The translations under genes and the position numbers were made by a program. From NCBI GenBank assembly GCA_000004985.1, contig GG738921.1: DNA of 64,000 bases; one strand, given 5' to 3'. Under the pieces are notes generated by a model. The model saw nothing but the letters and a program-made list of their open reading frames with translations. It ran no database searches and was not told where the DNA came from. This DNA comes from Naegleria gruberi (lineage: Eukaryota). This document shows, piece by piece, positions 13,368-61,380 of the stretch (within the stretch, counting starts at the first letter, position 1; every line of letters starts with the position of its first letter).

Positions 13368-13693
13368 TTTGAAATAATTTGAGATTCGATTAGAATTAAA
13401 CTATTTAAGATAATTATCTTGGTGGATGTTATATGGAGTTTTGCGCATGTGGAATTATATTGGAATCTATTTGGCATTCAAGAAAAGTGTGTAACGGAGT
13501 TAAATTACAGTGACCATACTTATTGAGTATGAGATACAATGTTCCCATAGCTGAGGATTCGTGTATTAATATATCCATTACTGTTCGTTCTTATTCTCTC
13601 ACTTCTTTTATTAATAAACTACTAGAAATGTACATTTCTATTATTGAACCGATGTGAATGAATAAACAAAGAAATATTTCATAGTGAATGTAT

Positions 13694-13765
13694 TCCCGTG
13701 TAGTCCAATGGCTAGGATACCTGGCTTTCACCCAGGAGGTCCGGGTTCAATTCCCGGCATGGGAG
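13694..13765 (+). tRNA. tRNA-Glu (anticodon UUC), 72 nt.
   Basis: Cloverleaf: acceptor TCCCGTG/CATGGGA (one G-U pair), D arm GTCC-AATGGCTA-GGAT, anticodon stem CCTGG/CCAGG with loop CTTTCAC, T arm CCGGG-TTCAATT-CCCGG, discriminator G. Confidence 0.9.
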
Positions 13766-13840
13766 GATAATTTTACATTTTCAAATGCGGAATAGTTTGG
13801 TTATCATCTCCGGATTTATTTCTGAAACACTGCAAAAAAA

Positions 13841-16716
13841 ATGGCAAACTCCTTTTCTTTCATCTTGTTTGCCATCTTGGTTTTGAATTGGGCCTTGTTA
13901 GCCAATTGTAATTTGACTTTTTCACAACAAACATTCAACACTCTCCTCAACTCAACCCAAACTTCAACTCTATCACTGACAATGTACATGGGAGGTGGAA
14001 CAACCATCAAAAACAGTAACAACAGCACATGTGGAATGTCTGTGGATAATCCATGTACAAACTTTAATCAATTATTATTAACTTTTAATTGGACACTCTT
14101 TAGTCAATTTGAGAATTTCACAAAAGCAACATCGGCAGGTGAAAGAAACGTTCACTTGAAGATACTGATACTTCCAGATGGCAGTATTTTCTGTCCTATC
14201 AATCCAGTTAATTTATCTCCTTCAATGAATTATCATTTAGAATTTACGAAACTAGTCGAATCATCAACAATAACACCCATCTTGACCTGCCTCAACACAC
14301 AAGATGGAAATGGCATTTCCATTCCTNNNNNNNNNNNNNNNNNNNNNNNNNNNNNNNNNNNNNNNNNNNNNNNNNNNNNNNNNNNNNNNNNNNNNNNNNN
14401 NNNNNNNNNNNNNNNNNNNNNNNNNNNNNNNNNNNNNNNNNNNNNNNNNNNNNNNNNNNNNNNNNNNNNNNNNNNNNNNNNNNNNNNNNNNNNNNNNNNN
14501 NNNNNNNNNNNNNNNNNNNNNNNNNNNNNNNNNNNNNNNNNNNNNNNNNNNNNNNNNNNNNNNNNNNNNNNNNNNNNNNNNNNNNNNNNNNNNNNNNNNN
14601 NNNNNNNNNNNNNNNNNNNNNNNNNNNNNNNNNNNNNNNNNNNNNNNNNNNNNNNNNNNNNNNNNNNNNNNNNNNNNNNNNNNNNNNNNNNNNNNNNNNN
14701 NNNNNNNNNNNNNNNNNNNNNNNNNNNNNNNNNNNNNNNNNNNNNNNNNNNNNNNNNNNNNNNNNNNNNNNNNNNNNNNNNNNNNNNNNNNNNNNNNNNN
14801 NNNNNNNNNNNNNNNNNNNNNNNNNNNNNNNNNNNNNNNNNNNNNNNNNNNNNNNNNNNNNNNNNNNNNNNNNNNNNNNNNNNNNNNNNNNNNNNNNNNN
14901 NNNNNNNNNNNNNNNNNNNNNNNNNNNNNNNNNNNNNNNNNNNNNNNNNNNNNNNNNNNNNNNNNNNNNNNNNNNNNNNNNNNNNNNNNNNNNNNNNNNN
15001 NNNNNNNNNNNNNNNNNNNNNNNNNNNNNNNNNNNNNNNNNNNNNNNNNNNNNNNNNNNNNNNNNNNNNNNNNNNNNNNNNNNNNNNNNNNNNNNNNNNN
15101 NNNNNNNNNNNNNNNNNNNNNNNNNNNNNNNNNNNNNNNNNNNNNNNNNNNNNNNNNNNNNNNNNNNNNNNNNNNNNNNNNNNNNNNNNNNNNNNNNNNN
15201 NNNNNNNNNNNNNNNNNNNNNNNNNNNNNNNNNNNNNNNNNNNNNNNNNNNNNNNNNNNNNNNNNNNNNNNNNNNNNNNNNNNNNNNNNNNNNNNNNNNN
15301 NNNNNNNNNNNNNNNNNNNNNNNNNNNNNNNNNNNNNNNNNNNNNNNNNNNNNNNNNNNNNNNNNNNNNNNNNNNNNNNNNNNNNNNNNNNNNNNNNNNN
15401 NNNNNNNNNNNNNNNNNNNNNNNNNNNNNNNNNNNNNNNNNNNNNNNNNNNNNNNNNNNNNNNNNNNNNNNNNNNNNNNNNNNNNNNNNNNNNNNNNNNN
15501 NNNNNNNNNNNNNNNNNNNNTTGGAATAGCATTAGGTTTTGGAATATTCTTTGTGTGGAAAATTGTAAAGAAATTGAGAAAACTGAAAAGTAAGGAGAAG
15601 GCAGAGAAACAAATTGAAGAAAAACTTTTAGACAAGCGACTTATTTTCAATATGAATGACGAGGAGGATGAATATTATGAGGGCTCCACACCAAATATTG
15701 AAAGAAGCAAATCATCTTATGGGAAAGTATCTGAAAAGGAGTTAGTTTCTTCATTGATTGACAGTGAAAAGAAGAAATCAAAACATTCTTTCAGTTTTTC
15801 ATCCTCTTACATTATTCCAATTGAAGACATATCAATTATTAAAAAGATTGGAGAAGGAGGCGCAGCTAATGTATATTATGGTACATGGACCAATATTAAA
15901 GTGGCTATCAAGTCACTCAAGATTGACAGTTTTGATGATGATTTTGAGAATGAAGCAGCCATCCTCAGTTTAATTAGACATCCAAACATTCTGACATTCT
16001 ATGGAGTATGTTTGACTGATAAGAGTCGATATATTGTGACTGAATATATGGAAAATGGCTCTCTAGACAGGTATATATTTTTGAATAAGAACAGAGCATT
16101 GAATATTGACCTATTCAAATCAAATATTGGAATTTTGTGTGGAATTGTGGATGGTATGCAATATTTACACTCTCTTAAACCTTCAATTATTCACAGAGAT
16201 TTGAAATCGAGTAATATATTGTTGGACGAAAGAAATACTCCAAAAGTTTCTGATTTTGGTCTTGTTAAAGTATTGGGAAACAATACAATCAGTCAAATTA
16301 CAAAAGGAATTGGTACAGTGTATTATTTAGCTCCAGAAACATTCATTGCTGAACATCAAATTGAAAATAAGGAAGAGGCAACCAAGTTGGACATTTACAG
16401 TTTTGCAATAATCATGTGGGAATTATTCTTTCGAATGAGTCCTTATCATCATGTGAAAAATCCATTCAAAGTGCCTCAAATGGTTGTCAATGGAGAAAGA
16501 CCTCAAATTCCCTTCAATATTGAAAATGATACGGAAATCAAAGAATGGCTTTCAATTCAAGCATTGGAAATTTCATCGTCTGACAATTCTTTCATTAATG
16601 GTATTAAGAAATACTTCTCACTCATTCTCCAATGTTGGAATCAAAATCCATTACAAAGACCTACATTCCTGACAATTAGAAGAGAATTGGATGAGATTTA
16701 CAATCTAATCGGTTGA
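13841..16716 (+). CDS. Receptor-like TKL-group protein kinase. The gene spans the assembly gap. Domain order: signal peptide, N-glycosylated ectodomain, [gap], TM helix, Ser/Thr/Tyr kinase.
   Basis: 5' ORF MANSFSFILFAILVLNWALLANC... with many NxS/T sites runs into the N run at 14327. Immediately after the gap, the same strand reads LGIALGFGIFFVWKIVKKLRKLK (a TM helix plus basic stop-transfer). Then a complete kinase follows: GEGGAANVYYG, VAIK, HRDLKSSNILL, DFG, APE. It ends at 16716. Confidence 0.65.
14327..15520. other. Assembly gap (1194 N).
   Basis: Run of N. ORFs 14264..15532, 14292..15650 and 14304..15593 in the track are artefacts of translating N. Confidence 1.
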
Positions 16717-37880: not shown

Positions 37881-38988
37881 ATGTCTGCTCAATCCATTAG
37901 CTTTTCCAAGTATACAAAATTCGACAATCACTACAGAAAACAATACGTCGAATCGATCAAGACCCAAAATGAAGAGATGAGCAAGAAATTAAATCATCCA
38001 ATGGAATGGTATTGCTCCGAGAAGGTTCATGGTTGTAATTTGAGCTTTATTGTTGATAGAGTAAGGCAATCAGAGTATAAAGTAGAGGTTGCTAATCGTT
38101 CATGTGTTCTTTCACAATCATCAATGAGCTTTTATCCAAAAACAATTGAACAGTTGGAGAAAAAGTTTGAGTGGTGAATTGAATGAACAATTGAAATTGA
38201 AGAGTGTTCAAATTTATGGTGAATTATTTGGTGGATTATTCCCAAATAAGAAACCTTCAGATGCTAAGGCAATTCAAAGTGGAATTCACTATTGTCCACA
38301 TCATGATTTTTATGCTTTTGATGTTCTTCTCGGATTTGAGAATGGAAAACAATCTTGGGCTGTTTTTAACAATGTTGATCCATTGTTGGATGAGTGTGGA
38401 TTCAAAGTGAGAGCTCAACCATTGTTTAAGGGAACTTTGGACGAATGTTTGGAGTTTGATGTTAAATTTAACACTAAATTACCAGAAACTTTCTATCCAG
38501 AAATTGTAAAGGAAAGAAATGCTTCCTGGAAGGATTTGGATAATATTTGTGAAGGTGTTGTCATCAAACCAACCAAGTACAATATCTTTGTGGAAACTGA
38601 AAGAGCTGTAATCAAGAAGAAGAATGAAAAATTCTTGGAAACTGAAGCTAGTGATAAACCACAACAACCAGTGAAAAAGGAAAAGGGTGACTCTGAAGAG
38701 CTAGTTCAGGTATGGAATGAACTCTCACGATACATTACCTCCAATCGTTTGGATAATGTTCTCTCAAAGATTGGAAACCTCACCAAGAGTAACATGTTCC
38801 CAGTTATGAAGGAATTCTCAAATGATGCCCTCGAAGAATTTAAATTAGATTTGGAACGTGGTGCTTTGGAAAATTGTAAACCAGTTTCTTCACTTTCAAG
38901 TGAAGATCAGAAAAAGCTCACTAAAAAGATCAATGATGCTTGTATGGTTTTAATTAAGGAACAATTAAACAAACCATCATCAGAATAA
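37881..38988 (+). CDS. T4 Rnl2-family (ATP-dependent) RNA ligase. The reading frame is interrupted once near 38150-38177.
   Basis: MSAQSISFSKYTKFDNHYRKQYVESI...MEWYCSEKVHGCNLSF aligns with T4 Rnl2 [20 protein letters not shown]...GEWVAREKIHGTNFSL. Motif I Lys is at 38022-38024. Downstream VQIYGELFGG...IHYCPHHDFYAFDV aligns with YQVFGEFAGPGIQK..DYCDKDFYVFDI. C-terminal NRLDNVLSKIGNLTKSNMFPVMKEF aligns with NRVNNVISKIGEIGPKDFGKVMGL. Frame 0 ends ...EKKFEW* at 38177. Frame 1 opens at 38128 and carries the rest. The shift lies at or near the run GGAGAAAAAG (38156-38165). Confidence 0.75.
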
Positions 38989-41601: not shown

Positions 41602-42484
41602 TTAAACTTTATTATCAGCTCCGTAAGGTTGATTTGGTTGGGCATAATAATTAGGTTGTGGATCCACAACTCCTGGTTGACCATATCCTTGATTAGCAGT
41701 AGGATATGGTTGACCATAACCACCTTGTGGTTGTCCATAGCTTTGATTAGGATTATAAGGTTGAGCTGTTTGATTTGGATTATACGGTTGACCATAACCT
41801 GGTTGACCATAAACCTCTGATGATGGATTGTAATAAGGTTGTTGTTGACCTACTACTGGTGGTTGTGTTTGATTTGAATAATAAGGAGTTGAAGTGTAAC
41901 CACCTGGTTGTTGAACTGCCAAATTTGGTTGCATTTGGCCAACTGTTGTCGTGGTTGATTGAACAGTTGTGGTTGCAACTGGGATTGGAGTGGTGACAGT
42001 TGTGGCAGCTGCCAAATCACTTCTTGACATACCATCTGCGATATTCTTCATGATAATGAACATTCGAATACCTGCAATGACGGACGAAATTCCAGCAATG
42101 ATCAATACAATGCCAATAACACCCAAAACAATTGGAGTGGTAATTCCAGAGCATGATGTGCTGGAATTGGTTGTCACAGCAAGACATGCTATAATGAATA
42201 CAAAGTTTAGTCAAGTTTCGAATAATTTCAAAAATTGATTATTAGAAACAAGATAATGAATTAGTTTTCAACAGATCAACAAGAAACCTACCTGCATACA
42301 ATGCACCAACGGCAATCGCAGCAATTCCTAGAGCAATACCAATCAAGATGGAAACAACTCCTGAGATAATTGTGGCAAGTGGTTTAGTTCTTCTGTTTCC
42401 AATAACTATTCCTCCTCCTACGTGATGATTTACATGATGATGGTGATGATGACCGTGTCGTCCATGGTGATGGTGGTGAGCCAT
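41602..42484 (-). CDS. Membrane protein with a polyHis N-terminus, two TM helices, and a C-terminal (GYGQP/YNPNQ)n Tyr/Gln/Pro-rich repeat tail. Two exons: join(41602..42188, 42292..42484).
   Basis: Exon 1 encodes MAHHHHHGRHGHHHHHHVNHH followed by the TM helix IISGVVSILIGIALGIAAIAVGALYA. The intron is 103 nt (GTAGGT...TATAG). Exon 2 encodes a second TM helix (IVLGVIGIVLIIAGISSVIAGI) and then QPGYGQPYNPNQ-type repeats. Confidence 0.5.
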
Positions 42485-49888: not shown

Positions 49889-51670
49889 TTATTGGAATGG
49901 TTCCAATTCAATTTCGAAAACTGAAACTGGTGTCTTCAAACCAAAGTTAGAAGCAACTTCTGGATGAATAATACCGAAAATACCAATCTTCTTGCCCTTG
50001 TAGAAGATATCAGCTTGTCTACCTGGCAAGAAGCTAATATCGTTAGATGGGAAAATTGAGAAACAGTGCTTATCAACAGATTGGCTATGTTCAACTTCGA
50101 ATGGAACAGCTAAAACTTCCATAACTCTGTCAACCAAACCGTGAATCAGTTCCAAACCCGATGTAGCAGATGAGAAGAGAGCAGCAAGTCTTCTATTATT
50201 CTTAGCACCAACATCCTTAGAATCATCAACTAAAATAACATCACCACATTCGAACAATTTGATTGGCAATGGCAATGACTTGTTGCTTTGCAAGGTCTTT
50301 AACAAACCTGGAATCAAACTAATTCTAGCAGTCTTGAATTCGAATGGACATGGTTCAGCAACAGCAATAGCAGTCTTACCATCGTTGACTCTGTTCATGT
50401 ATTTAAAGTTTTCTTCATCGTTACAGAGAATCAAGGACAAAACTTCAGTATATCCTGACATGGCGAGTTCAAGACGCACCATTTCTGACAATTGGTTCAA
50501 TTCATTTTCCTTACCAACAGTTGAAGACTTTGGGAAAGTAATTGGGATATTGTTGTAACCATGAGCAATGGCAACATCTTCCATAATATCACAAGCATGT
50601 AAAACGTCTGAACGAGTTGGTGGAGCAAGAACTCTCAATTCATTATTTTGAGTGACAGTAGCATTCAATTGCATCTTTGTCAAAATTTCTGCAATTTGTT
50701 GAGCAGATAAATTCAAACCAATTCTACTATTAATATAGTCGCTATTTGTAGTGAATTCAACATTATCAAGAATTGGAGTAGGTTCATCCTTTGATTGAGT
50801 CTTATCTTCATATACAATTTCAACTTGTTCAACTGTGAATGGAACAGAGCAATGTTCAGAGAACATGGTAACAACAGTATTCAAGACAACCTTAGCCTTT
50901 GTCAAATCAGTTGCAGTACATTCAATGAAAACATTCTTTGTAGACATTTTGATCTTTGAGTGATCTCCGTTAATAATTGGTGGCAAAGACAAAACTCTTC
51001 TCTTAGCATCTAAAATAACTGGATAAACTGGACTATCCTTGATAATCTTAGTGTAAGGGGACAAGTGCTTCATTTCACTTCCCTTTTTTTCAATAAAAGC
51101 GAAAAGTTCGTCAGCATCCATTAATTCAGTTCTATCCAAAGGAATGAATTTGATTTCTTTTGGTGGAAGAGCTTCATATGTGAAAGGACCTTCAATAACA
51201 TCCAAATCGTGAGTACCAATAGCAACGAGGGTTCTCTTTCTACAAATATTTTGATGAAGCTTTTCTTGTAAATCAATGAAACTATTGTAGGCATCTTCGG
51301 TGAAGGTGATATTTCTCAAGACAGCACCAACAACAAATTTACGGATTGATCCAGTTTCCTTTTTCACGTTAATCTTTAACAATTGTTTGGTTTTGGAATT
51401 ATCAATTTTATAGGTTGGAGCATCTTGACGACCGAGGAAAATGTTCAAAGCTCTGCTCAAGCCTTCTTCACAGAGTAAATCGTATCTGTTGGCTGGGATT
51501 TCAATCTTGTAGATGACTTCATCGGAGAGTTTGCTTGTATCCTTTGCAGAACCCAATTCCTTTTCCTTCATCAATCTTTCAGAGGTAACATCATCCAATT
51601 CAATACCAAAATCAAAACAAAGTTGCTCAAAATCGGCATCGGCTATAGGAGATATTTTTTTAATTTTCAT
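49889..51670 (-). CDS. phesB: Phenylalanine--tRNA ligase beta subunit (cytosolic).
   Basis: Alignable over its whole length with human FARSB: EFDELCFEFGLELDE / DFEQLCFDFGIELDD; LYKIDVPANRYDLLC; AVLRNI.F..D.Y.SFIELQEKLHQNICRKR.LVAIGTHDLD; PPIINGDHS; ...RTTLLPGLLKT. A short additional 5' exon is possible. Confidence 0.9.
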   Translation of the reverse strand: MKIKKISPIADADFEQLCFDFGIELDDVTSERLMKEKELGSAKDTSKLSDEVIYKIEIPANRYDLLCEEGLSRALNIFLGRQDAPTYKIDNSKTKQLLKINVKKETGSIRKFVVGAVLRNITFTEDAYNSFIDLQEKLHQNICRKRTLVAIGTHDLDVIEGPFTYEALPPKEIKFIPLDRTELMDADELFAFIEKKGSEMKHLSPYTKIIKDSPVYPVILDAKRRVLSLPPIINGDHSKIKMSTKNVFIECTATDLTKAKVVLNTVVTMFSEHCSVPFTVEQVEIVYEDKTQSKDEPTPILDNVEFTTNSDYINSRIGLNLSAQQIAEILTKMQLNATVTQNNELRVLAPPTRSDVLHACDIMEDVAIAHGYNNIPITFPKSSTVGKENELNQLSEMVRLELAMSGYTEVLSLILCNDEENFKYMNRVNDGKTAIAVAEPCPFEFKTARISLIPGLLKTLQSNKSLPLPIKLFECGDVILVDDSKDVGAKNNRRLAALFSSATSGLELIHGLVDRVMEVLAVPFEVEHSQSVDKHCFSIFPSNDISFLPGRQADIFYKGKKIGIFGIIHPEVASNFGLKTPVSVFEIELEPFQ

Positions 51671-58191: not shown

Positions 58192-59118
58192 ATGGTCAAT
58201 TCTCATTGTTATTCTTTTCGTTGCGAGAATGGAGAAGGTAAATTCATTGAATTGCAGTTATCATTCTCCGAACCTGAGCATCAAATCACTCTAGCTTGTA
58301 CCTACAATTATCATAAATATTTGTTTCGTGAAGAAACTTCATCCGTCATTCATTTCAAATATTACAAGACATGTTTGATGAATAATTCAATTAAATGCAA
58401 AGTTTCTGAGAATTGCATTACCCTGAATGTGAAGGAATGTTCTGATCTGGAAGAAACTGTAAAATTTATTCTTGAGAAACAAGAAAGAAACCCAGAAGAA
58501 AAATTGAATATCATGTTTGAAGTCATGATGCAAGATATTAGAGAATTGAAGGAAAAACTTTGGTTTACAGATAAGGATTTGAACAAATTCTCAGAAAAGT
58601 ATATTTCCAATTGGAATAGTTTAACAAATAACTATTCGAAAAACGTTGACAATCCTTCTATTAGAAAAAACCAAGATTCTAATTATGATGTAAAGAATTA
58701 TGCAGTTAATACTTCAGGTTTTAAGGCTAATGGATATACGAAAGGTTGTCGTGAAGAAAATTTGGAACCTATTGTCATTTACTTTAAACAAAAAGTGGAA
58801 TTCTCAAAGATTGAATTCATTGTGAATGCTCCAGGTAAGAAAGAAGACCCAATTGCAATTTATATCTATGGTGTGTTTAAACCTCAAGGATTTATTAGAA
58901 AAATGGAGGAATCAGGTTCAAGTTCTGGAACTTCTGAACCAAAAGAAGAATTCATCATCATGCCAAAATTGGAGCAACTTGTTAAGGAAGATTGTAAACA
59001 ATCAGATATTGTTTCGGTTAGTTTAAATCTCAGTAATTGCTACGATGGTATTGGAATTGCAGTTAGAAAGGATAAGACTGCCATCTCTTATAGCTTGACT
59101 GATGTCAGAATTTATTAA
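58192..59118 (+). CDS. Hypothetical protein (308 aa).
   Basis: Single ORF with typical composition. No domain recognised. Confidence 0.45.
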   Translation: MVNSHCYSFRCENGEGKFIELQLSFSEPEHQITLACTYNYHKYLFREETSSVIHFKYYKTCLMNNSIKCKVSENCITLNVKECSDLEETVKFILEKQERNPEEKLNIMFEVMMQDIRELKEKLWFTDKDLNKFSEKYISNWNSLTNNYSKNVDNPSIRKNQDSNYDVKNYAVNTSGFKANGYTKGCREENLEPIVIYFKQKVEFSKIEFIVNAPGKKEDPIAIYIYGVFKPQGFIRKMEESGSSSGTSEPKEEFIIMPKLEQLVKEDCKQSDIVSVSLNLSNCYDGIGIAVRKDKTAISYSLTDVRIY

Positions 59119-59157
59119 ATATCCTTTCGAATAGATTTTATTAGCACCAAACTATTC

Positions 59158-59982
59158 TTACTTTTGCAAATTAGTGAATGATTTTCTAAATATTCTAATA
59201 AATTCGTTATGAACTTGTGCATCTCCCATTTCCATAACATATAAAACTGCATTACTTCCAGAAATATCCAAATTATTCTTCTCGACATACTCATTTGAGA
59301 ATTCGTATAATTGTTTGAAAATCTCAAGATATTGCTCTTCCATAACCGATCTATTAGCAATCTGAACAGCAATCTCCAACTCTTCCCTATTCAAATCATT
59401 ACAATACATTGGACCACCCATTTGTTGTTTCCATGAATCAGCCAAAGAACCAATATCAACCGCATCGAATCCTAAATCTTCAATTATATTCGAAACCAAT
59501 TGCTTACTTTTCAAACTATCACCAGAAACTGGAATTGCAACTCTGTTTGGAGCATTTTGAATGCCTCCTTTTGATTTTAAGCTGAAATCTGTAATATTGT
59601 TAAAGGCCTTAATCATTGGACGATTAAAGTAGTGAGAAATCCATTCGGTGTGGTTTAGTTTCCCATTTTGAATTTCCTCAATGGGGCCATCTCTAGATGG
59701 GTTATAATTACACGTATCGACAATTACGACATTTTCCAATGCGCTTTCGAATAATTGTCTATCCAATTGAAAAACTCCTTTCGTTGGAATGGTCAGAATG
59801 ATTAGTTGTGCATTTTTCACAACTTCTGCAACTGGGAGAGCAGTGGCGCCAGTTTCACTTTCGACTTGTTTCAAAGTTTCTGGACCTCTTGAGTTTGAAA
59901 TTCTAACAGAATGACCGAGTTGGGTGAAAGATTTCGCCAAGAAAGCACCAATTCTGCCAGCACCAATAATACCAATTTGCAT
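59158..59982 (-). CDS. Bacterial-type NADP oxidoreductase, coenzyme F420-dependent-like / COG2085 predicted dinucleotide-binding enzyme. Intronless.
   Basis: MQIGIIGAGRIGAFLAKSFTQLGHSVRISNSRGPETL matches the N-terminus typical of bacterial COG2085 proteins (MKIGIIGAGNIG.ALA..L...GHeV.l.nSRgPe.l). 274 aa, no TM segment. Confidence 0.7.
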   Translation of the reverse strand: MQIGIIGAGRIGAFLAKSFTQLGHSVRISNSRGPETLKQVESETGATALPVAEVVKNAQLIILTIPTKGVFQLDRQLFESALENVVIVDTCNYNPSRDGPIEEIQNGKLNHTEWISHYFNRPMIKAFNNITDFSLKSKGGIQNAPNRVAIPVSGDSLKSKQLVSNIIEDLGFDAVDIGSLADSWKQQMGGPMYCNDLNREELEIAVQIANRSVMEEQYLEIFKQLYEFSNEYVEKNNLDISGSNAVLYVMEMGDAQVHNEFIRIFRKSFTNLQK

Positions 59983-60178
59983 TTTTTTTTTGACAGTTTA
60001 CTTGAGTGAATCTATTCGATCAGCATGAGATTTTTATTCGATTTAGAAGTAGATTATGGAGAGTAAAAGTGCTCACGCAATCAATTCGCAGTAGTAGCAG
60101 TAAGTAGTAAAAGTCAATAGAACGCACGCAATTACTTGCTTTAACAATAATAAAAACAAGTTGCTGAAATCAAAAGTA

Positions 60179-60265
60179 TCCGATGAGACGGAATCGAACC
60201 GCCGACCACAGGATGACAGTTTTTCTTGCTACAGTCCCATGCTCTACCAGCTGAGCTATCATCGG
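60179..60265 (-). tRNA. tRNA-Tyr (anticodon GUA) with a 14-nt intron 3' of position 37.
   Basis: Minus strand: CCGATGA-TA-GCTCAGCTGGTAGAGC-A-TGGGA-CTGTAG-[CAAGAAAAACTGTC]-A-TCCTG-TGGTC-GGCGG-TTCGATT-CCGTC-TCATCGG-A. Perfect acceptor stem. Close to canonical eukaryotic tRNA-Tyr. Confidence 0.8.
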
Positions 60266-60404: not shown

Positions 60405-61380
60405 ATGCCACAACATGTCCATCATCACTCCCTCTCACCTTCAAGACCAGTCGTCGTTATTGATAATGGCTCGGGAATGATTAAGGTAGGATTTTCCTGT
60501 AGTGATTCTCCCAGAGCCATATTTCCAACAATAGTAGGGCATAAAAAAGAGTCATCAGATCAAAAGAAGGAAACAACCAACAATGATCTCAATAGTATCG
60601 GATCATCATTTGTTGGAGAGATGGCAATAGCTCATCGAGAATTATTGGACATAAAAAGTCCCATGGAAAATGGAATAATTTCAAATTTTGATGATATGGA
60701 AAAGATTTGTTATCATCTCTATCCGGAGTTCTTGTCACAGAACCAAGTTAGAATCCAAAGTTGGTGAGAGAAAAAACAACAGAAATATTTTTTGAAAAGT
60801 TTAAGGCCAATCAGTGATGGGACTTTGTTCGAGTGCCAGATCAGATGGTGTTGTTTTGGATGCTGGTTATACGAAATCATATGCTGTTCCAATTCTTGAA
60901 GGAATTGCATTGCCACATGCCATTCAGGTGATGNNNNNNNNNNNNNNNNNNNNNNNNNNNNNNNNNNNNNNNNNNNNNNNNNNTTCACAAAGAGGAGGTT
61001 TGAATTGTCAGATGGAAGCAAAGTGAATTTTGGAGAGGAATTAATGTCATGTCCAGAAGCTCTATTCAACCCACAGTTAATCAAAGAAGGAGAAGGAATT
61101 CACAAGATTCTCGTCAATTCCATTTTCAATTCAAATGCAGAAATCACAAGACAACTCTTTGCCAATATTGTCCTTGTCGGTGTCTCAACAATGTTTGAAG
61201 GTTTTCCCAATCATTGAATTGGCTCCTCTCTCTGTAAAAGTGAAAATCCTTTCATTCCCCGAAAGAAAACTCTTCCTGGTTTGGAGGTTCAATTACGAGC
61301 TCTCTTTCAGAATTCCACAATATGGCCATTCACAAAAAGGAATATGAAGAAGTTGGACCTAGAATTGTAATGTAGAAATG
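60405..61380 (+). pseudogene. Actin-family (actin/Arp-like) gene with multiple frame disruptions and a 50-N gap. A probable pseudogene or badly assembled locus.
   Basis: The N-terminus VVIDNGSGMIKVGFSCSDSPRAIFPTIVG...ENGIISNFDDMEKICYHLY resembles actin [28 protein letters not shown]...EHGIVTNWDDMEKIWHH. Downstream actin-homologous segments lie in successively different frames: REKTTEIFFEKFKA; then SSARSDGVVLDAGYTKSYAVPILEGIALPHAIQVM; then gap 60934..60983; then CPEALFNPQ...NIVLVGVSTMFEGFP; then [20 protein letters not shown]; then [34 protein letters not shown]. That is 4 or more frameshifts plus in-frame stops. Confidence 0.55.
60934..60983. other. Assembly gap (50 N).
   Basis: N run inside the actin-like locus. 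Confidence 1.

What the first reader, a model, noticed from the sequence alone, without database searches (positions are those of the whole stretch)
59158..59982. Intronless bacterial-type COG2085 / F420-dependent NADP oxidoreductase-like gene, a candidate horizontal acquisition
The N-terminus (M.IGIIGAGRIGAFLAKSFTQLGHSVRISNSRGPETL) closely matches the signature start of bacterial predicted dinucleotide-binding enzymes of the NADP_oxidored_coenzyme_F420-dep family, including the conserved SRGPE motif. The gene is a soluble 274-aa protein. Eukaryotic relatives of this fold are usually the membrane-bound STEAP family. The gene has no introns in a genome where most neighbours do. Codon usage is already AT-adapted, so any transfer would be old.
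Basis: partly seen in the sequence, partly recalled or inferred. Interest (0 to 1): 0.55.

Follow-up and report, generated by a model that had tools for sequence, protein, structure and literature searches.

The report
Bacterial-type NADPH oxidoreductase gene in Naegleria
This is a real, intact nuclear gene of the amoeboflagellate Naegleria gruberi (not a slime mould) that encodes a soluble NADPH-binding enzyme of a mostly bacterial family; it was most likely picked up from soil bacteria long ago, which is a fairly ordinary event for a bacteria-eating amoeba.

Summary
The 274-aa ORF at 59158..59982 (-) is real. It lies between eukaryotic genes on a 207-kb scaffold, 196 bp from an intron-containing tRNA, and its codon usage matches its neighbours. 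It is not contamination.

An exhaustive search found what the word-indexed search missed. N. gruberi has two further copies (66125 and 66113, 44% identical to this one), and a fungus (Exobasidium) has one. In NJ trees 75146 nests among bacterial sequences (193/200). The three Naegleria copies form an exclusive clade in only 14/200, and no donor is resolved. No N. fowleri or Willaertia orthologue appeared, although a control gene recovered both.

Being intronless is normal in this genome (1.7 exons per gene).

Verdict: an old bacterial-to-eukaryote transfer is well supported. It is of modest interest and adds a new member to a known kind.

The parts
59158..59982 (-). Complete single-exon CDS of NAEGRDRAFT_75146 (274 codons plus TAA stop at 59158..59160)
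   Evidence: ORF listing. 100% identity to XP_002669937.1. In-frame stop 5 codons upstream.
59704..59979 (-). Rossmann-type NADP-binding domain (residues 2-93)
   Evidence: PF03807 match to residues 2-93, E = 1.9e-16. AF2 model pLDDT 95-98 in this region.
59947..59964 (-). Dinucleotide-binding glycine motif G7-A-G9-R-I-G12
   Evidence: G7, G9 and G12 are invariant in the family alignment and align with the GxGxxG/A of 4huj and STEAP3.
59878..59895 (-). N30-S31-R32-G33-P34-E35, the clade signature. S-R aligns with the S-R pair of STEAP3 and 4huj (inferred 2'-phosphate site giving NADP(H) preference).
   Evidence: N30, S31, R32, G33 and P34 are invariant in A1. Alignment to STEAP3 'GSRNPK' and 4huj 'NSRGPA'. 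The role in 2'-phosphate binding is inferred from published STEAP/FNO structures and was not tested here.
59596..59610 (-). K125-A-F127-N128-N motif, shared with 4huj and STEAP3 (inferred nicotinamide/acceptor site)
   Evidence: K125, F127 and N128 are invariant. 'KAFN' is identical in 4huj and STEAP3 in the HMMER alignments. K125 and N128 are conserved in both outgroups.
59161..59388 (-). C-terminal all-helical extension (residues 199-274). Only its first helix is conserved in the family.
59119..59157 (.). 39-bp spacer between the stop codons of this gene and the convergent 308-aa ORF 58192..59118 (+)
   Evidence: It shows tight integration into a compact eukaryotic gene array.
59983..60178 (.). 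196-bp 5' intergenic region (GC 0.32, A-run immediately before the ATG) between the gene and a tRNA gene

Best explanation
NAEGRDRAFT_75146 is a genuine, selectively maintained nuclear gene of Naegleria gruberi. Its ancestor was acquired by lateral transfer from a soil or freshwater bacterium, long enough ago for codon usage to be fully ameliorated. It encodes a cytosolic, soluble NADP(H)-dependent oxidoreductase of the FNO/STEAP-N-domain fold. NADPH is bound by the N-terminal Rossmann domain (GAGRIG plus the N-S-R 2'-phosphate site). Hydride is passed from the nicotinamide to a still unidentified small acceptor bound near the conserved KAFN, W114, R147, D155, SW and Y193 positions. That acceptor is probably planar and redox-active, like a flavin or quinone, and probably not F420. 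The gene belongs to a small N. gruberi family of at least three copies. Whether these derive from one transfer or two is unresolved. Shown here: gene integrity, host context, fold, clade membership, conservation, and a bacterial-dominated phylogenetic neighbourhood. Inferred: the direction and timing of transfer, NADPH specificity, and the class of acceptor.
For: Host integration: the gene sits on a 207-kb N. gruberi scaffold between an actin-family gene, PheRS-beta, an MFS gene and others. It is 39 bp from a convergent gene and 196 bp from an intron-containing tRNA. GC3 and codon index fall within the neighbours' range.

Bacterial affinity: the 119 best non-self hits are bacterial or metagenomic at 41-51% identity. 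A GTDB scan found 389 relatives across Gemmatimonadota, Myxococcota, Acidobacteriota, Bacteroidota, Actinomycetota, Proteobacteria, Verrucomicrobiota and others. An exhaustive phmmer search gave 3634 representatives at E<=1e-3 and 113 at <=1e-30. The gene is nested among bacterial sequences in 193/200 NJ bootstraps. The contigs of close relatives that I inspected are bacterial, with TetR, PadR, HxlR and MacB neighbours.

Patchy eukaryotic distribution: a control gene (PheRS-beta) recovers N. fowleri (72%) and Willaertia (67%) from the same database. The target recovers neither.

Constraint: 29/29 invariant positions and 33/35 positions conserved at >=90% are retained, against 23 for 4huj and 17 for STEAP3.

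Not F420-specific: TIGR01915 scores 17.1 against a 149.8-bit cut-off. Most lineages holding the closest relatives (Bacteroidota, Myxococcota, Gemmatimonadota) are not known F420 producers (background knowledge).
Against: The trees are neighbour-joining on 197 columns with very weak internal support (<=25% for any specific sister), so no donor is identified and long-branch effects are possible. Eukaryote sampling is indirect. Only 20 of the top 150 representatives could be named, so other eukaryotic members may be hidden among unnamed sequences. Absence from N. fowleri and Willaertia rests on predicted proteomes, not on genome tblastn. The syntenic-site test was uninformative. Expression was not tested. 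No substrate evidence exists: bacterial gene neighbourhoods are not conserved and no family member close to it has been characterised.
Confidence: 0.75

Rival explanations
1. One ancient transfer into the Naegleria lineage, followed by duplication. 75146 then evolved faster than 66125/66113, so all three copies are co-descendants.
For: All three copies are ~270 aa with a long helical tail, whereas most bacterial members are 215-250 aa. The best representative hit of 75146 in the exhaustive search is 66125, aligned over residues 2-266. The tail-to-tail alignment spans the full tail with z = 3.0. In about a quarter of bootstraps the smallest clade containing both has <=6 members.
Against: Core identity between 75146 and 66125 is 49.5%. 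That is lower than 75146 to its best bacterial sequence (52%) and much lower than 66125 to bacterial sequences (~60%). The three form an exclusive clade in only 14/200 bootstraps. Tail similarity is no better than to several bacterial tails.
Confidence: 0.4
2. Two or more independent transfers: 75146 and the 66125/66113 pair were acquired separately from different bacteria.
For: In the NJ tree the two groups sit in different parts of the bacterial radiation. 66125 is ~60% identical to Xenophilus, Corallococcus, Polaromonas and Hymenobacter proteins but only 49.5% identical to 75146. Repeated transfer of this family into eukaryotes is shown independently by Exobasidium, which groups with bacterial long forms in 187/200 bootstraps.
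Against: Deep nodes have almost no support. Rate acceleration in 75146 alone would produce the same pattern.
Confidence: 0.4
3. Vertical inheritance: an ancestral eukaryotic gene retained in Naegleria and a few other lineages and lost almost everywhere else.
For: At least two distant eukaryotes, Naegleria and a basidiomycete, carry soluble members. Many unnamed metagenomic sequences could not be assigned.
Against: The fungal copy groups with a specific bacterial long-form subclade, not with Naegleria (187/200). No orthologue appears in N. fowleri or Willaertia although the control gene finds them. The eukaryotic copies are embedded in a radiation of thousands of bacterial sequences.
Confidence: 0.07
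4. It is a true F420H2:NADP+ oxidoreductase (FNO/NpdG) and works with a deazaflavin cofactor, as the family name suggests.
Against: The NCBIfam npdG equivalog scores 17.1 bits against a 149.8-bit cut-off. phmmer to FNO 1jax gives E = 0.017, against 1.4e-13 to the uncharacterised 4huj. No literature links Naegleria to deazaflavins. The database labels are automatic name transfers.
Confidence: 0.04
5. Bacterial contamination or an assembly artefact in the N. gruberi genome.
For: The protein has high similarity to bacterial proteins and the gene has no introns.
Against: The gene is embedded in a 207-kb scaffold between eukaryotic genes, 39 bp from a convergent neighbour and 196 bp from an intron-containing tRNA. 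GC (0.356) and codon usage match the neighbours. Maximum identity to any bacterial protein is only 51%.
Confidence: 0.01
6. Acquisition through a mitochondrial endosymbiont (EGT) or a giant-virus vector rather than directly from free-living bacteria.
For: Naegleria hosts giant viruses and carries viral insertions (PMC12344493, listed). One viral-contig relative exists.
Against: There is no presequence, because an in-frame stop lies 5 codons upstream. There is no special affinity to Alphaproteobacteria. The only hit in 2.9 million viral contigs is 37% identical, no closer than bacteria. The flanking genes are cellular.
Confidence: 0.03

Closest known systems
Bacterial 'ANSRGPE' clade of COG2085/PF03807 proteins ('predicted dinucleotide-binding enzyme'; e.g. 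Gemmatimonadaceae, Cystobacter, Hymenobacter and Sphingobacterium proteins)
   Same: 41-51% identity over the ~200-residue core. All 29 invariant and 33/35 near-invariant positions are shared. Same stand-alone soluble architecture, with a variable helical tail.
   Different: It is encoded in a eukaryotic nucleus with native codon usage. Its tail (~75 residues) is longer than in most bacterial members (215-250 aa in total). It sits on a long branch with no specific sister. No member of the clade has a known substrate.
SMa0349 of Sinorhizobium meliloti (PDB 4HUJ), an uncharacterised structural-genomics protein
   Different: Only 28-29% identity. 4huj shares 23 of the 35 clade-conserved positions and lacks the long tail. 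Its function is also unknown.
F420H2:NADP+ oxidoreductase (FNO/NpdG; PDB 1JAX/1JAY, 5N2I)
   Different: It fails the equivalog model (17.1 vs 149.8 bits). It is 19-21% identical. The host is not known to make F420.
N-terminal oxidoreductase domain of metazoan STEAP2-4 metalloreductases (PDB 2VNS, 6HCY, 9PGW)
   Different: There is no six-helix haem-binding transmembrane domain. The protein is 274 aa with no TM segment. It shares only 17 of 35 clade-conserved positions.
Other eukaryotic members: N. gruberi NAEGRDRAFT_66125/66113 and Exobasidium rhododendri UZJ55582.1
   Same: Same clade, similar length (266-268 aa), soluble, and retaining 34-35 of 35 conserved positions.
   Different: Only 43-44% identical to 75146 overall (49.5% in the core for 66125). 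Exobasidium clusters with Acidobacteria-like long forms, and 66125 with other bacteria.

Membership tests
[quoted passage not shown] | Score above the Pfam gathering threshold over the N-terminal Rossmann domain | tested here: met
   60.9 bits against a 21.6-bit cut-off, residues 2-93 covering profile positions 1-94 of 94.
FNO/STEAP-type dinucleotide-binding fold | 3-D fold matching FNO, STEAP N-domain and 4huj better than generic Rossmann reductases | tested here: met
FNO/STEAP-type dinucleotide-binding fold | NADP(H)-binding motifs: GxGxxG/A and a downstream S-R pair for the 2'-phosphate | tested here: met
   G7, G9, G12, S31 and R32 are present and align with those of STEAP3 and 4huj. Actual cofactor binding cannot be tested with these tools.
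Bacterial 'ANSRGPE' COG2085-like clade | Retention of clade-specific conserved positions (N30, S31, R32, G33, P34, N92, Y93, P95, R97, W114, K125, N128, R147, D155, GFD, S183, W184, Y193) | tested here: met
   29/29 invariant columns in A1. 33/35 columns conserved at >=90% in 219 bacterial sequences, with the two exceptions being S112T and L166I.
COG2085 (predicted dinucleotide-binding enzyme) | Assignment by the COG profile itself | not testable with these tools
   No COG library is available. It is indirectly supported because JGI names many close homologues 'predicted dinucleotide-binding enzyme', which is the COG2085 name.
NADPH-dependent F420 reductase (NpdG/FNO; NCBIfam TIGR01915) | Score above the equivalog cut-off | tested here: not met
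   17.1 bits against a 149.8-bit cut-off. phmmer to FNO 1jax gives E = 0.017.
NADPH-dependent F420 reductase (NpdG/FNO) | Host makes or acquires F420/FO | not testable with these tools
   The whole genome was not available. No paper links Naegleria with deazaflavin.
STEAP metalloreductases | C-terminal six-helix haem-binding ferric-reductase transmembrane domain | tested here: not met
   The protein is 274 aa with maximum KD(19) of 1.34 and no TM segment. The tail is predicted as soluble helices. There is no FRD Pfam hit.
Pyrroline-5-carboxylate reductase (also carries PF03807) | C-terminal P5CR dimerisation domain | tested here: not met
Interdomain lateral gene transfer (bacteria to eukaryote) | Physically integrated in the eukaryotic genome (not contamination) | tested here: met
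Interdomain lateral gene transfer (bacteria to eukaryote) | Phylogenetically nested within bacterial sequences with support | tested here: met
   193/200 NJ bootstraps place it in a clade with some bacterial sequences that excludes other ingroup bacteria and the outgroups. Caveat: the method is NJ only, and the specific sister is unsupported.
Interdomain lateral gene transfer (bacteria to eukaryote) | Absent from close relatives of the recipient | tested here: inconclusive
   No N. fowleri or Willaertia protein appears in the top hits although the PheRS-beta control finds both. Genomes could not be searched by tblastn, and the syntenic region is rearranged.

The most novel reading that the evidence does not exclude
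The 'ANSRGPE' clade may be a distinct, uncharacterised family of NADPH-dependent reductases, mislabelled as F420 reductases. It may have been captured repeatedly by soil eukaryotes: perhaps twice by Naegleria and once by the plant-pathogenic fungus Exobasidium. The reason would be that a single stand-alone gene gives a selectable benefit, for example reductive detoxification of redox-active bacterial or plant metabolites such as quinones, phenazines or flavin analogues met during bacterivory or infection.
Probability: 0.15. Interest if true: 0.5.

Novelty: new member of a known kind. Interest (0 to 1): 0.25.

Why it matters
The finding adds one well-documented case, and probably a small gene family, to the list of bacterial genes living in a free-living heterolobosean. 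It also shows the same bacterial family entering a fungus independently. Both are useful data for the debate on how often phagotrophic and soil eukaryotes fix bacterial genes. It flags that thousands of database entries called 'F420 reductase' in organisms not known to make F420 belong to a clade with no known substrate. It does not open a new mechanism or resolve an open question. Such transfers are expected in amoebae, and the gene was already annotated as a 'predicted protein'.

Tried and rejected
1. Dictyostelid origin: rejected. The ORF is 100% identical to an N. gruberi protein and the window's GC is 33%.

2. Intronlessness as an HGT signal: rejected.

3. Control search with the first exon of the adjacent actin-family gene: uninformative. 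It gave 21 candidates and did not recover even the N. gruberi protein.

4. Syntenic presence/absence test through the PheRS-beta orthologue loci of N. fowleri, Willaertia and an environmental Naegleria-like contig. Only two genes are shared with N. fowleri and the 52-64 kb block is not there, so the test says nothing.

5. Reading 'no other eukaryote in the top 120' from the word-indexed search as exhaustive: wrong. It missed the N. gruberi paralogues and the fungal copy that the exhaustive search later found.

6. Suspicion that the metagenomic long forms were fungal, because Exobasidium shares their tail: rejected. Their contigs are bacterial.

7. Function from conserved bacterial gene neighbourhood: no conserved partner. 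SDR appears in 8/80 loci by clustering. The Pfam census of 97 flanking ORFs gave at most 4 for any family. TetR or HxlR regulators are divergent in some loci only.

8. Tail homology as a shared derived character of the Naegleria copies: inconclusive.

9. Viral vector: one weak hit only.

10. Literature searches for the locus tag, COG2085, SMa0349, Naegleria + F420 or deazaflavin, and the supplements of the Katz-2015 reassessment found nothing relevant. The N. gruberi genome paper (PubMed 20211133) is not held, so I could not check whether this gene is in its list of prokaryote-derived candidates.

11. The AFDB50 fold search for organism-labelled hits was unavailable.

Full report
**1. Observation**

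The minus strand of the window carries an uninterrupted ORF at 59158..59982 of 274 codons. It matches Pfam PF03807 (F420_oxidored) at 60.9 bits against a 21.6-bit cut-off. An in-frame stop lies five codons upstream of the ATG, and no window reaches transmembrane hydrophobicity. The product is therefore a short soluble protein without a presequence.

**2. Whose genome**

The protein is 100% identical to 'predicted protein [Naegleria gruberi]', on a 207,235-bp scaffold. Its identifiers are EFC37193.1, XP_002669937.1, NAEGRDRAFT_75146 and UniProt D2W1A3. The window's GC of about 0.33 equals the published N. gruberi value (PMC8296547).

**3. Is it really part of that genome?**

Yes.
- The flanking genes are eukaryotic: an intron-split actin-family gene at 60405 onward, PheRS-beta at 49889..51670, an MFS fragment, a zinc-ADH and a DUF4476 protein.
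- The gene's stop codon is 39 bp from the stop of a convergent 308-aa ORF.
- Its ATG is 196 bp from a tRNA gene whose anticodon loop carries an insertion (Rfam RF00005, 54.8 bits, 60179..60265 minus). By eye this reads as tRNA-Tyr(GUA) with a 14-nt intron.
- GC3 is 0.29 and a CAI-like index trained on 21 neighbouring ORFs is 0.704. Both lie inside the neighbours' ranges of 0.21-0.31 and 0.659-0.785.

Contamination is excluded, and any transfer is old.

**4. Introns**

The argument that this gene is intronless while its neighbours are not does not hold. The window has 23 uninterrupted ORFs of >=300 aa outside the assembly gap. N. gruberi averages 1.7 exons per gene.

**5. What the protein is**

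The sequence evidence is as follows.
- No NCBIfam equivalog reaches its cut-off. The NADPH-dependent F420 reductase model TIGR01915 gives 17.1 bits against 149.8.
- Among solved structures the best sequence match is the uncharacterised SMa0349 (4huj, E = 1.4e-13).
- It is followed by the STEAP3 and STEAP4 oxidoreductase domains (E = 1.9e-8 and 1.6e-7).
- True FNO (1jax) is marginal at E = 0.017.

The structural evidence comes from an AlphaFold2 model built on a 56-sequence alignment, which is confident (pLDDT 92, pTM 0.89).
- Residues 199-274 form four predicted helices that match nothing in these structures.

The shared motifs point to NADP(H) binding and hydride transfer at the Rossmann/C-subdomain interface, as in STEAP and FNO. 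These motifs are GxGxxG, an S-R pair aligned with the S-R of STEAP3 and 4huj, and KAFN, which is identical in 4huj and STEAP3. That mechanistic step is inferred, not shown.

**6. The family**

The closest relatives form a very large, overwhelmingly bacterial clade marked by ANSRGPE[TS]L.
- The word-indexed search gave 2384 hits. The best 119 non-self hits are bacterial or metagenomic at 41-51% identity.
- A scan of one genome per GTDB species gave 389 relatives. The best 80 are spread over Gemmatimonadota, Myxococcota, Acidobacteriota, Bacteroidota, Actinomycetota, Proteobacteria, Verrucomicrobiota, Planctomycetota and one Nitrososphaerota MAG, all at 38-49% identity.
- The exhaustive phmmer search of 1.84 billion representatives gave 3634 hits at E<=1e-3 and 113 at <=1e-30.

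The Naegleria protein keeps all 29 invariant columns of the 56-sequence alignment. It also keeps 33 of 35 columns that are >=90% conserved in 219 bacterial sequences, and the two exceptions are S112T and L166I. For comparison, 4huj keeps 23 and STEAP3 keeps 17. It is therefore a constrained, bona fide member of this clade and presumably does what the bacterial enzymes do.

**7. What that function is remains unknown**

Bacterial neighbourhoods are not conserved.
- Clustering the three ORFs on each side in 80 loci gave an SDR in 8 loci and an HxlR-like regulator in 4.
- A Pfam census of 97 immediately flanking ORFs gave no family in more than 4.

Individual loci do show a redox or xenobiotic flavour.
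- A divergent TetR regulator lies upstream in two long-form contigs, together with PadR, MacB/FtsX and FAD monooxygenases.
- HxlR plus SDRs, or HxlR alone, occur in two others.
- The fungal copy lies next to an Old Yellow Enzyme.

No paper was found on COG2085 function or on SMa0349. My best guess is NADPH-dependent reduction of a planar redox-active small molecule (flavin or quinone type) in a stress or detoxification role. I hold that guess with low confidence. F420 is unlikely, for three reasons: the failed HMM test, the taxonomy of the relatives, and the absence of any link between Naegleria and deazaflavins.

**8. Other eukaryotes and a methodological warning**

The word-indexed search listed no other eukaryote. 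The exhaustive search showed this was partly an artefact.
- Its best non-self representative, P0262 (268 aa, 44% identity, aligned over residues 2-266), is N. gruberi NAEGRDRAFT_66125.
- That protein's 90% cluster also holds NAEGRDRAFT_66113, which is 98% identical in the core. Both lie on one 507-kb scaffold.
- P0266 (266 aa, 43% identity) is from the basidiomycete Exobasidium rhododendri, on a 5.45-Mb chromosome.

Only 20 of the top 150 representatives could be named, so more eukaryotic members may exist.

As a positive control, the neighbouring PheRS-beta retrieved N. fowleri (72%) and Willaertia magna (67%) from the same database. The target gene retrieved neither at any level above the bacterial hits. 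No clear orthologue is annotated in those genomes. The attempt to look at the syntenic site failed because the region is rearranged.

**9. Phylogeny**

All trees are neighbour-joining on 197 core columns with Kimura distances and 200 bootstraps.
- With 4huj and STEAP3 as outgroups, 75146 falls in a clade with some bacterial sequences that excludes other ingroup bacteria in 193/200 replicates. No specific sister exceeds 25%.
- 75146 is a long branch, at most 52% identical to anything in the core. Core identity to 66125 is 49.5%.
- 66125 reaches about 60% identity to Xenophilus, Corallococcus, Polaromonas and Hymenobacter proteins.
- The three Naegleria copies form an exclusive clade in only 14/200 replicates.
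- Exobasidium groups with Acidobacteria-like long forms in 187/200 replicates, which indicates a separate, fungal acquisition.
- Tail comparisons do not discriminate between the hypotheses.

The data therefore support bacterial ancestry. They leave open whether Naegleria acquired the family once, with acceleration in 75146, or twice. Viral contigs gave a single 37%-identical relative, so a viral route has no support.

**10. Comparison with what is known, and verdict**

This is the same kind of thing as many reported prokaryote-to-protist transfers. The protein is a new eukaryotic member of a known fold and Pfam family.
- It is not a member of the FNO/NpdG equivalog, because the defining score was tested and not met.
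- It is not a member of the STEAP family, because it has no membrane domain.

Interest is modest at 0.25. The most interesting residue is the hint that this stand-alone bacterial reductase family has been captured repeatedly by soil eukaryotes, together with the fact that its substrate is entirely unknown.

Noticed in passing
window 60179..60265 (-): A tRNA gene (Rfam RF00005, 54.8 bits) with a 17-nt insertion in the anticodon loop relative to the model. By eye it is tRNA-Tyr (anticodon GUA) with a ~14-nt canonical-position intron. ARAGORN in default mode missed it.
   Followed up: partly
window 14327..15520 and 60934..60983: Runs of N (assembly gaps). The first produces the apparent GC dip to 0.11-0.16 at 14-16 kb and four spurious overlapping 'ORFs' of 422-562 aa. 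The second interrupts the actin-family gene.
   Followed up: yes
not in window; proteins P0262 and P0411 (NAEGRDRAFT_66125 and 66113, one 507-kb N. gruberi scaffold): Two further N. gruberi members of the same family, 98% identical to each other in the core but only 44% identical to the window's gene and closer (~60%) to bacterial proteins. The word-indexed homology search missed them; only the exhaustive search found them.
   Followed up: partly
L086:6001-6801 (Exobasidium rhododendri CP110631.1): A basidiomycete fungus carries an intronless long-form member (UZJ55582.1). It clusters with Acidobacteria-like bacterial long forms in 187/200 bootstraps. It lies next to an Old Yellow Enzyme, a Pyr_redox_2 gene and a retrotransposon. 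This looks like an independent bacterial-to-fungus transfer.
   Followed up: partly
L089:411-1209 and L090:263-1061 (Logan SRA contigs, GC 0.425): A relative of the Exobasidium/long-form group (P0292) whose C-terminal tail continues in another reading frame about 25 nt downstream. This could be a frameshift, a pseudogene or an assembly error. The organism is unknown and gene density is low.
   Followed up: partly
window 38146..38988 (+) and 41602..42177 (-) vs L001 (N. fowleri VFQX01000030.1): Partial microsynteny. An RNA-ligase gene and a small ORF from the window lie next to the N. fowleri PheRS-beta orthologue, but on the opposite side relative to PheRS-beta, and the 52-64 kb block is absent. 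This indicates local rearrangement between the two Naegleria species.
   Followed up: partly
L003 (ENA ERZ27315067 k141_827819, 6838 bp): An environmental metagenome contig encodes a PheRS-beta 76% identical to N. gruberi's, closer than N. fowleri's 72%. It is probably an unsequenced Naegleria species.
   Followed up: no
proteins P0016 (423 aa), P0289 (557 aa), P0295 cluster (441-470 aa, 70 members): Bacterial members of the clade fused to extra C-terminal domains. P0016 carries PF06041/DUF924. The P0295 cluster includes a Trebonia (Actinomycetota) protein. These fusions might hint at function but were not analysed.
   Followed up: no
L087:827-2268: A bacterial contig with two family members in tandem, followed by an HxlR regulator and two SDR genes. 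Tandem or nearby paralogues also occur in 3 of the 80 GTDB loci.
   Followed up: no
window 58192..59118 (+): The convergent neighbour is a 308-aa ORF with no Pfam match. Its stop is only 39 bp from the target's stop, so the 3' UTRs must be very short or overlap.
   Followed up: no
window 13693..13766 (+): A tRNA-Glu (UUC) gene found by ARAGORN.
   Followed up: no
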